A stretch of 64,000 bases of DNA from Carcharhinus longimanus. Its lineage: Eukaryota. Each line of letters begins with the position of its first letter. Positions within the stretch are counted from its first letter, which is position 1. A program made the position numbers and the translations under genes. Below, piece after piece: positions 1,471 through 2,662 of the stretch. The DNA is taken from contig JASCQW010000128.1 of assembly GCA_030264375.1 (NCBI GenBank), positions 18,529,404 to 18,593,403 of the forward strand, read 5' to 3'. The notes under the pieces were generated by a model. It ran no database searches and had not been told where the DNA came from. It saw only the letters and a list, made by a program, of their open reading frames with translations.

Positions 1471-1825
1471 AGTCTTGTGATACAATGATCACTTTCTCCT
1501 AAATGTTTCCCTATTGATCTTGACCTGCTTGGCCCACATCATTTCCACAGACTAAGTCCAAACAGTGCTTCCTTTCTTGTTGGACTGTTCACACACATTT
1601 TCCTGAACACGATGTAGCTGCACTTGTCCCTCTCTACGCTTTATGCTACCACTGTCCCAGTCTACATTTAGGTAATTAAAGTCCCCCATTAGAACTACTC
1701 TATAATGTTTGCATCCCTCTATAATTTCCCTGCAGATTTGTTCCCCTACATCTTTCTCATTCTAATACTTTTTTTTTGTTCCTTTAGCCAAATTGATTCT
1801 GTCCTTGAACTTTCTGGGACATCCT

Positions 1826-2005
1826 TCTTAATTTTTGCAAAGCCAATGCTAGATGGATCAGTGGACCCCAATCCATTCCTTTCTCCAAAAACAAAACTTA
1901 AATTCCAATTGAATTCAATTCAAGTGAGGCAAGTGAAATCTAAGTTGACCAAATAAGGCATTAAACCCCTTTTTGTGCTTGATCTCAGCCAAAAGGCCAA
2001 GAAGT
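1826..2005 (-). mobile_element. U2 snRNA-headed short retroposon (SINEU-like) with 8-bp TSD
   Basis: 1978-2007 reverse complement TCACTTCTTGGCCTTTTGGCTGAGATCAAG matches 27/30 to U2 nt 2-31; non-U2 body of ~150 bp; GACATCCT at 1818-1825 and 2006-2013. Confidence 0.75.
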
Positions 2006-2662
2006 GACATCCTCTTTCTCCAGCACTGCAATGCTTGCTTAAACAATACTGCTACCCTCCTTTTGTTTTACTTTCCTATCTTTTCTATTGGACCATTTTG
2101 TACTAGCTCGTCTGTTTGCCCTGTTTCATTTTAAATGAAACAACTACTTCCTGAGTCTGCCTATCTTGCCACTGTAACATTGACTTGGCTGACCCCATTG
2201 AGATTTTCATCTGTAACTTTTGGGATTAGATTTATCATAAAATAAATGAAGGGTTTCAAACCATTTCTTCTGGTGAACATTGTCCACCTAGATGCATGTA
2301 CTTTGTAGCCAATGGCCCCTAAACTTTCCATAGCCATGGTCTCCCTGAATAAAGAACTCTAGCCCAGTGCTCTCTTGTTACCCGCACTTGGAGAGCTTCG
2401 TATCCCAAAGCAACACAACACAGAGAATCCCACAAAGCATGGAGTCATCTTTCCCAGGATACATAAGCTGGAGAGTCATTGCTACAAGACTAATGAGACT
2501 GGCCAAGGAAACCCAGCTTCATCAGATGTCTGCAGGGTGTATGCTGGTGTCCCAGCACAAGCTCTTTATTTGGACTGGGATAAGGTACAGGGAAGGAGAG
2601 TTTTTGAGAACAATTTTTGTTGGCTTTTGTTTTATATTAAAAATGTTGCTAAAAGGTATTCT

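What the first reader, a model, noticed from the sequence alone, without database searches (positions are those of the whole stretch)
1818..2013. U2-snRNA-headed short retroposon with a target-site duplication, inserted into a CR1
Seen: the minus strand starts with 30 nt matching the 5' end of U2 snRNA (27/30; two mismatches are CpG decay). It then switches to a ~150-bp non-U2 body (CACAAAAAGGGGTTTAATGCC...GGATTGGGGTCCACTGATCCATCTAGCATTGGCTTTGCAAAAATTAAGA). The unit is bracketed by GACATCCT, and removing it restores a continuous flank (ctgggacatcctctttctccagcactgc). Known: snRNA-headed SINEs (SINEU) are described from crocodilians, and U2 genes are the targets of the site-specific non-LTR elements Keno (Tx1) and Utopia. 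Inference: this is a mobile U2-chimera, possibly co-transcribed from a U2 promoter after a U2-targeted element inserted and shrank. That would be a SINEU-like family in sharks.
Basis: partly seen in the sequence, partly recalled or inferred. Interest (0 to 1): 0.72.

Follow-up and report, generated by a model that had tools for sequence, protein, structure and literature searches.

The report
Shark SINE rebuilt from U2 RNA
This is one old copy of an abundant short jumping element, probably from a shark, that is built almost entirely from a remodelled U2 splicing RNA; it was likely transcribed from a U2 gene promoter and likely pasted by a LINE enzyme, a design found in print only for crocodilians.

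Summary
The insertion is real. Host-LINE copies elsewhere carry the 8-mer once and lack the insert, so the duplication is genuine. It belongs to a dispersed family ('A'): 499 exact hits of a 20-base motif (control 0), roughly 1,200-7,000 copies, about 87% identical to consensus, no young copy found. It is not non-U2: it is U2 nt 31-160 at about 70% identity, with a shared 24-base insert and an 18-base duplication. The branch-point-pairing motif is gone (0 of 85 copies) and the Sm site is altered (70 of 85). This matches crocodilian SINEU-3 in design. A younger relative ('B', about 2,000 copies) and an L1/Tx1-type LINE both occur at U2 nt 38/39, the Keno/Utopia site. Some B copies look like retroposed read-through RNAs of an interrupted U2 gene, which supports borrowing of the U2 promoter. 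For family A itself that step is inferred: no source gene was found. No shark SINEU turned up in eight paper searches; Repbase and Dfam could not be checked. The scan noted shark U2-headed SINEs before (22 notes, at least 5 genomes, including this one).

The parts
1826..2007 (-). Whole family-A element (U2-derived short retroposon copy)
   Evidence: 144 matches and 26 mismatches to the family consensus over consensus nt 2-204; the only copy in the window
2006..2013 (.). Target-site duplication at the element's 5' end (overlaps U2 nt 2-3)
   Evidence: sequence; single in host-repeat loci
1818..1825 (.). Target-site duplication at the element's 3' end (overlaps the family 3' end by about 4 bases)
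1978..2007 (-). U2 head, nt 2-31 (stem-loop I region)
   Evidence: 27 of 30 identical to U2 gene L031
1967..1977 (-). Remnant of the family-specific 24-base insert; this copy lost 12 bases between two short internal repeats
   Evidence: alignments; the insert is present in 73 of 78 copies that cover it
1923..1966 (-). Diverged U2 nt 31-75, with the branch-point-pairing motif altered; followed by an 11-base deletion private to this copy
1904..1922 (-). Family-specific 18-base duplicated stretch before the Sm site
   Evidence: present in 77 of 83 copies that cover it
1836..1903 (-). Diverged U2 nt 88-160 (altered Sm site, stem-loop III, 5' arm of stem-loop IV)
   Evidence: consensus 69% identical to U2 88-160 over 75 columns, E 2e-7 in a three-sequence blastn
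1826..1835 (-). Short A-rich end; this copy lacks the full family tail
   Evidence: family tail profile, 72 copies: about 5-6 A, 4 T, 5-7 A
2014..2090 (-). Host LINE, upstream part of the ORF2 endonuclease region
   Evidence: 37 non-self hits at 76-95% identity
1555..1817 (-). Host LINE, downstream part of the ORF2 endonuclease region (same strand as the element)
   Evidence: PF14529 E 1.3e-4 on 1555-1761; CR1 clade recalled from motifs, not tested

Best explanation
This is an inert, old copy of an abundant SINEU-type short retroposon made from a remodelled U2 snRNA, whose source copies were likely transcribed from a U2 gene promoter and likely copied into new sites by an L1/Tx1-type LINE enzyme. 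Shown: one shared structure (U2 1-30, 24-base insert, diverged U2 31-160 with an 18-base duplication, A-rich tail), thousands-scale dispersal, unrelated flanks, target duplications in a minority of copies, and loss of the motifs U2 needs for splicing. Inferred (about 0.6): the source was a U2 gene copy that kept its upstream promoter, because copies stop at or just short of U2 +1 and share nothing upstream. Inferred (about 0.65): the enzyme came from the L1/Tx1-type LINE that also lands at U2 nt 38/39. Inferred (about 0.7): family B descends from an A-like element that was pasted into a U2 gene at that site and so gained a fresh U2 1-40 head and a promoter.
For: Family: 499 exact hits of a 20-base 3' motif, reversed-pattern control 0; 4,953 first-look candidates, best non-self identity 91%. 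The first 30 motif hits by position (29 distinct places) average 87% to consensus outside the motif, and 22 of 30 reach the U2 head. Shared insert in 73 of 78 and shared duplication in 77 of 83 covering copies. Retroposition: duplications scoring 9 or more in 8 of 45 full-length A copies against 0.3% of 660 mismatched flank pairs; 5 of 27 against 0 of 234 for B. 5' end: 0 of 1,485 pairs of upstream flanks are similar in 55 headed copies. U2 origin. Splicing motifs lost: GTAGTA in 0 of 85; the Sm-site A reads G in 70 of 85. Keno/Utopia site: U2 resumes at nt 39 after those elements (PMC4640811, passages). A poly(A)-plus-U2-39 pattern gives 9 hits, control 0; by eye 3 are family B and 4 are LINE tails. 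That LINE has zf-RVT (E 2.9e-11) and an L1-like RT region. B is joined to U2 nt 39 in 3 of 47 U2 loci and in two U2 paralog types. L060 and L221 end where plain U2 precursor retrocopies end, and L116 carries U2 39-52 plus a new poly(A), as expected of retroposed read-through RNA.
Against: No family-A copy was found at the U2 target site (0 of 85) or behind a U2 promoter (one promoter searched: 3 candidates, none followed by A or B). The match to U2 at +1 to +4 is only 0.33-0.45, barely above background, so the start cannot be pinned to +1. The LINE is not U2-specific: 0 of 29 further tails sit at U2 nt 39. Tail homology between A and the LINE is inconclusive (P 0.05-0.26 for 25-40 bases; 0.002-0.02 for 55 bases; 16 tests). 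Most copies show no clear duplication (37 of 45). L060 and L221 could instead be insertions into already dispersed U2 retrocopies. The Tx1 clade and the shark identity were not fixed by a tree; the nearest named shark hit is a catshark protein at 63%.
Confidence: 0.72

Rival explanations
1. Family A is the set of processed pseudogenes of one lineage-specific variant U2-like snRNA gene with a cellular role, not a selfish SINE.
For: U2 homology runs to nt 160; a stem-loop-III-like hairpin is still predicted; copies stop near U2 +1; this genome makes many U2 precursor retrocopies (21 of 42 U2 loci carry the 3' extension).
Against: Branch-point motif absent in 0 of 85 and Sm site altered in 70 of 85; the stem-loop III fold is no better than shuffles (z 0.0); no near-consensus or promoter-bearing copy; A outnumbers true U2 retrocopies (48 scored Rfam hits, a lower bound); its sequence was reused in family B.
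Confidence: 0.1
2. It is a SINE, but transcribed by read-through from flanking host or LINE promoters (as Kojima proposed for SINEU-2 in Mariner-N4), not from a U2 promoter.
For: No A source locus in a U2 gene was found; the 5' ends are ragged; PMC4494074 argues for flank-driven transcription in crocodilians.
Against: No shared 5' extensions: 0 of 1,485 A pairs and 1 of 990 B pairs. B's head ends at the U2 target site and B read-through-like copies exist.
Confidence: 0.13
3. One reading: a Keno or Utopia element inserted into U2 and shrank, leaving a non-U2 body.
For: A LINE that lands at U2 nt 38/39 exists here; the last 55 bases of A resemble its 3' end in one of four window sizes.
Against: About 130 of the roughly 165 body bases align to U2; A's junction is at nt 30-34, not 38/39.
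Confidence: 0.03
4. A one-off template-switch chimera, or independent chimeras.
For: U2-headed one-off chimeras do occur here (L271: U2 head on a LINE tail; L090: extra U2 1-52 on B).
Against: 499 exact motif hits and shared internal rearrangements.
Confidence: 0.01

Closest known systems
SINEU-3 of crocodilians (Kojima 2015, PMC4494074; text parts 1-4 of 5 read; figures and supplements not available)
   Same: Nearly all U2-derived; a conserved U2 head of about 30 bases (32 in SINEU-3); a shared internal rearrangement right after the head; a 3' end not from mature U2; A-rich tail; thousands-scale copy number; old (87% here, 89% there).
   Different: Insertion plus duplication here, a ~50-base deletion there; no target preference seen here, against 90% next to Mariner-N4 there; a different vertebrate lineage (the paper found no SINEU outside crocodilians), so probably an independent origin. 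Sequence homology to SINEU-3 could not be tested.
SINEU-1/SINEU-2 (same paper)
   Same: Family B repeats their pattern: a new U2 head added to an older U2-headed unit, partial internal duplication, poly(A), duplications present in some copies only.
   Different: B's added head ends at the Keno/Utopia site and B copies occur in place inside U2 sequences with the 3' remainder attached; no U1 piece seen in A or B.
Keno (Tx1) and Utopia U2-targeting non-LTR retrotransposons (PMC4640811, passages)
   Same: Same junction (U2 resumes at nt 39) used by family B and by an L1/Tx1-type LINE in this genome.
   Different: Family A is non-coding, is not LINE-derived in its body and was not found at that site; the LINE here is mostly dispersed (0 of 29 further tails at U2).
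U2 processed pseudogenes (described in PMC4494074, Discussion)
   Same: Made by LINE machinery from U2-like RNA; present in this genome.
   Different: Those are near-identical to U2 and share no derived rearrangement; A copies share two, and are about 70% to U2 in the body but 87% to their own consensus.

Membership tests
SINEU (Kojima 2015) | 5' head derived from U1 or U2 snRNA | tested here: met
   consensus 97% to U2 1-34; 73 of 85 copies reach the head
SINEU (Kojima 2015) | Short (<500 bases), non-coding retroposon with an A-rich 3' tail | tested here: met
   consensus 219 bases plus tail; tail has an internal T run
SINEU (Kojima 2015) | Copies share derived structure, so they come from source copies, not independent retrocopies | tested here: met
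   73 of 78 and 77 of 83; 499 exact motif hits
SINEU (Kojima 2015) | LINE-type integration (target duplications in some copies) | tested here: met
   8 of 45 against 0.3% control; window copy proven against empty host sites
SINEU (Kojima 2015) | Mobilised by Tx1 elements (shared target preference) | tested here: inconclusive
   shared site shown for B and the LINE, not for A (0 of 85); tail homology inconclusive
SINEU-3 specifically | Internal ~50-base deletion of U2 and targeting of Mariner-N4 | tested here: not met
   insertion and duplication instead; flanks unrelated to each other
SINEU-1/2/3 specifically | Sequence homology to the crocodilian consensus sequences | not testable with these tools
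   no Repbase or Dfam; supplements unavailable
Keno/Utopia derivative | Inserted at U2 nt 38/39 with a LINE-derived body | tested here: not met
   body is U2-derived; 0 of 85 loci at the site
Functional U2 snRNA gene | Intact branch-point-pairing motif and Sm site | tested here: not met
   0 of 85 and altered in 70 of 85; Rfam 29.7 bits against a cut-off of 46
Functional U2 snRNA gene | Upstream snRNA promoter shared among copies | tested here: not met
   no shared upstream sequence; window copy sits inside a LINE
CR1 (host element) | CR1-clade ORF2 by phylogeny | not tested
   only an endonuclease-domain match; clade motifs recalled

The most novel reading that the evidence does not exclude
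Sharks evolved, independently of crocodilians, a lineage of U2-derived SINEs that live inside U2 genes: a disarmed U2 mimic (family A: branch-point motif and Sm site destroyed) spread under a U2 promoter, and a descendant renewed its head and promoter by re-inserting at the Keno/Utopia site of U2 genes (family B), folding back to hide the intact branch-point motif. This would answer how promoter-less SINEU elements are transcribed.
Probability: 0.42. Interest if true: 0.72.

Novelty: new member of a known kind. Interest (0 to 1): 0.52.

Why it matters
SINEs with snRNA heads have no internal promoter, and PMC4494074 names their transcription as an open question. It reports them only from crocodilians. 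An abundant, apparently independent family pair in a cartilaginous-fish-type genome shows the design is repeatable. The B copies sitting at the Keno/Utopia site with the rest of U2 attached make the promoter-borrowing idea directly testable. The window copy itself is an ordinary decayed insertion with no sign of function.

Tried and rejected
1. A-to-I editing as the origin of family A: rejected. Consensus against U2 has 7 A>G and 6 T>C; across 85 copies A>G is rarer than T>C (132 against 224) and no copy has 8 or more A>G. 2. Selection on U2-like stem-loop III: fold z 0.0, no support. The hairpin over the insert has z -3.7, but the region was chosen after seeing the fold. 3. Origin of the last ~30 bases: two candidates, neither settled. 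One is U2 3' flank through the deletion junction of L046-L048 (11 of 16 identical; shuffle P 0.46 for the 3'-only stretch). The other is the LINE tail: the control was faulty (poly(A) left in), and the repeat is inconclusive. 4. Search for a source gene: one U2 promoter (L031 type) searched, only decayed paralogs; other promoter types were compared only against loci already held; U2 arrays have assembly gaps. 5. L046-L048 as source genes: their 3' flank is a common repeat, so they are better read as an amplified retrocopy. 6. Sequencing runs, queried with a family-B copy: no RNA holder listed. 11 of 24 rows hold half or more of the words, from 5 studies and four organism labels plus unlabelled runs; one may be the source sample; none was laid. 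7. Paper searches for a shark SINEU (listings only, swamped by 'SINEUP', one search shows 30 of 2,841) gave none. Passages of PMC5753468, PMC5381603, PMC8455134 and PMC7245038 mention no shark snRNA-headed SINE; their supplements were not read. 8. Look-up of earlier findings by sequence: nothing.

Full report
Observation. The minus strand of window 2007-1978 matches U2 nt 2-31 of this genome's own U2 gene L031 at 27 of 30. An 8-base direct repeat lies at 1818-1825 and 2006-2013. A search with the right flank gave 37 non-self hits. In the 19 fetched, none carries the insert, 11 have the 8-mer once at the junction (7 or 8 of 8) and 12 continue into the left flank. The duplication is therefore real. 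It overlaps the head by 2 bases and the family 3' end by about 4. The host is a LINE endonuclease region on the same strand; the CR1 label is recalled from motifs.

Family. The body has many relatives. A 20-base motif near the 3' end occurs exactly 499 times, reversed control 0. The motif is kept in 12 of 29 and 8 of 29 copies picked by similarity, which gives at least 1,200-1,800 copies. An 87% mean identity implies up to about 7,000; a search with a near-consensus copy had 4,953 first-look candidates. The best non-self identity was 91%, so no young copy was seen among the 40 scored. In all 85 loci were analysed: 29, 29 and 27, after dropping the window copy, the query and three rows taken as duplicates (L129, L179, L181; L181 was not a duplicate of a held locus). 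73 of 85 reach the U2 head. Target duplications scoring 9 or more occur in 8 of 45 full-length copies against 0.3% of mismatched pairs; most copies show none.

The body is U2. The consensus aligns to L031 as U2 1-30, a 24-base insert, U2 31-87, an 18-base duplicated stretch, then U2 88-160. The body scores 60 against a shuffle maximum of 32 and is 71% identical over 116 columns. The match is specific to the L031 type; four other U2 copies scored within the shuffle range. The insert is in 73 of 78 and the duplication in 77 of 83 copies that cover them, so copies come from shared sources. The branch-point-pairing motif GTAGTA is absent from all 85 and the Sm-site A reads G in 70: the RNA would not work as U2. 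The last ~30 bases are unresolved between U2 3' flank and LINE tail.

Sister family and target site. Two U2 hits (L059, L060) carried a longer element ending in poly(A) just before U2 nt 39, the junction given for Keno and Utopia in PMC4640811 (passages). This family B has 672 exact motif hits, is 95% to consensus (30 position-picked loci, 29 distinct) and contains two A-like units behind a U2 1-40 head. A pattern for poly(A) plus U2 from that site gave 9 hits, control 0: 3 family B, 4 LINE tails, 2 other. The LINE has zf-RVT and an L1-like RT region; I call it Tx1-type from these and from the site, without a tree. B is joined to nt 39 in 3 of 47 U2 loci (46 distinct places) and in two paralog types. 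L060 and L221 continue through U2 to the end point of plain precursor retrocopies, and L116 has U2 39-52 and a second poly(A). The simplest reading is that a B-interrupted U2 gene was transcribed from +1 and retroposed; insertion into dispersed retrocopies is not excluded for L060 and L221. Targeting is weak: 0 of 58 other B loci, 0 of 85 A loci and 0 of 29 further LINE tails are at the site.

Mechanism. Shown: structure, dispersal, LINE-type integration, loss of splicing motifs. Inferred: a U2 gene copy with its promoter was the source of A, since copies share nothing upstream (0 of 1,485 pairs) and fade out at about +1. No such source was found, and U2 arrays are gapped in this assembly. Inferred: the L1/Tx1-type LINE supplied the enzyme. 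Inferred: B arose by re-insertion of an A-like unit at the U2 target site.

Comparison. The closest described element is crocodilian SINEU-3 (PMC4494074, parts 1-4 of 5 read; supplements unavailable). Family A meets the general SINEU features tested (snRNA head, short, A-rich tail, shared structure, duplications) but not those particular to SINEU-3. That paper found no SINEU outside crocodilians and calls their transcription an open question. Eight searches found no shark SINEU in the held library; Repbase and Dfam could not be checked, so a catalogue entry remains possible. The scan has noted such elements before: 22 notes in at least 5 genomes and 4 in this genome, unchecked and not independent evidence. 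My target-site result came before I read them.

Verdict. A real, old copy of a SINEU-type family: a new member of a known kind, interest 0.52. The copy is ordinary; the family pair, and B's position inside U2 sequences, are what deserve follow-up.

Noticed in passing
L054 (G000:C122:26933670-26933862), L220, L217: U2 retrocopies with a strong A>G excess against U2 gene L031: 19 against 1 T>C, 18 against 1, and 9 against 1; 3 of 43 loci counted. They look like A-to-I hyper-edited U2 RNA written back into DNA (inferred).
   Followed up: partly
L035-L060, L215-L230: 21 of 42 U2 loci carry the same ~40-base 3' extension of gene L031 and most end at about the same place: retrocopies of a 3'-extended U2 precursor without poly(A).
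   Followed up: partly
L081-L110, L184-L213: Family B: U2 1-40, a ~70-base stretch predicted to fold back on the head, two A-like units (75-76% to A) and poly(A); 672 exact motif hits, control 0; 95% to consensus; about 2,000 copies. Many copies break at assembly gaps.
   Followed up: yes
L150 (G000:C32:64132000-64141999): Tandem L1/Tx1-type LINE fragments and U2 pieces joined at U2 nt 38/39.
   Followed up: partly
L059/L113 (G000:C32:67428400-67429000): A stretch that I recall as 5S rRNA lies directly upstream of the U2 head of a B-interrupted U2 copy; not checked with Rfam.
   Followed up: no
L046-L048: Three unplaced contigs hold a U2 copy lacking most of stem-loop IV, with shared flanks; the 3' flank is a common repeat.
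   Followed up: partly
L153 (G000:C99:26746074-26747209): Two U2 genes about 1,045 bases apart with related upstream regions, running into an assembly gap: a collapsed U2 array.
   Followed up: partly
L271 (G000:C98:60395474-60395624): A U2 head fused directly to the 3' end of the L1/Tx1-type LINE, a one-off chimera.
   Followed up: no
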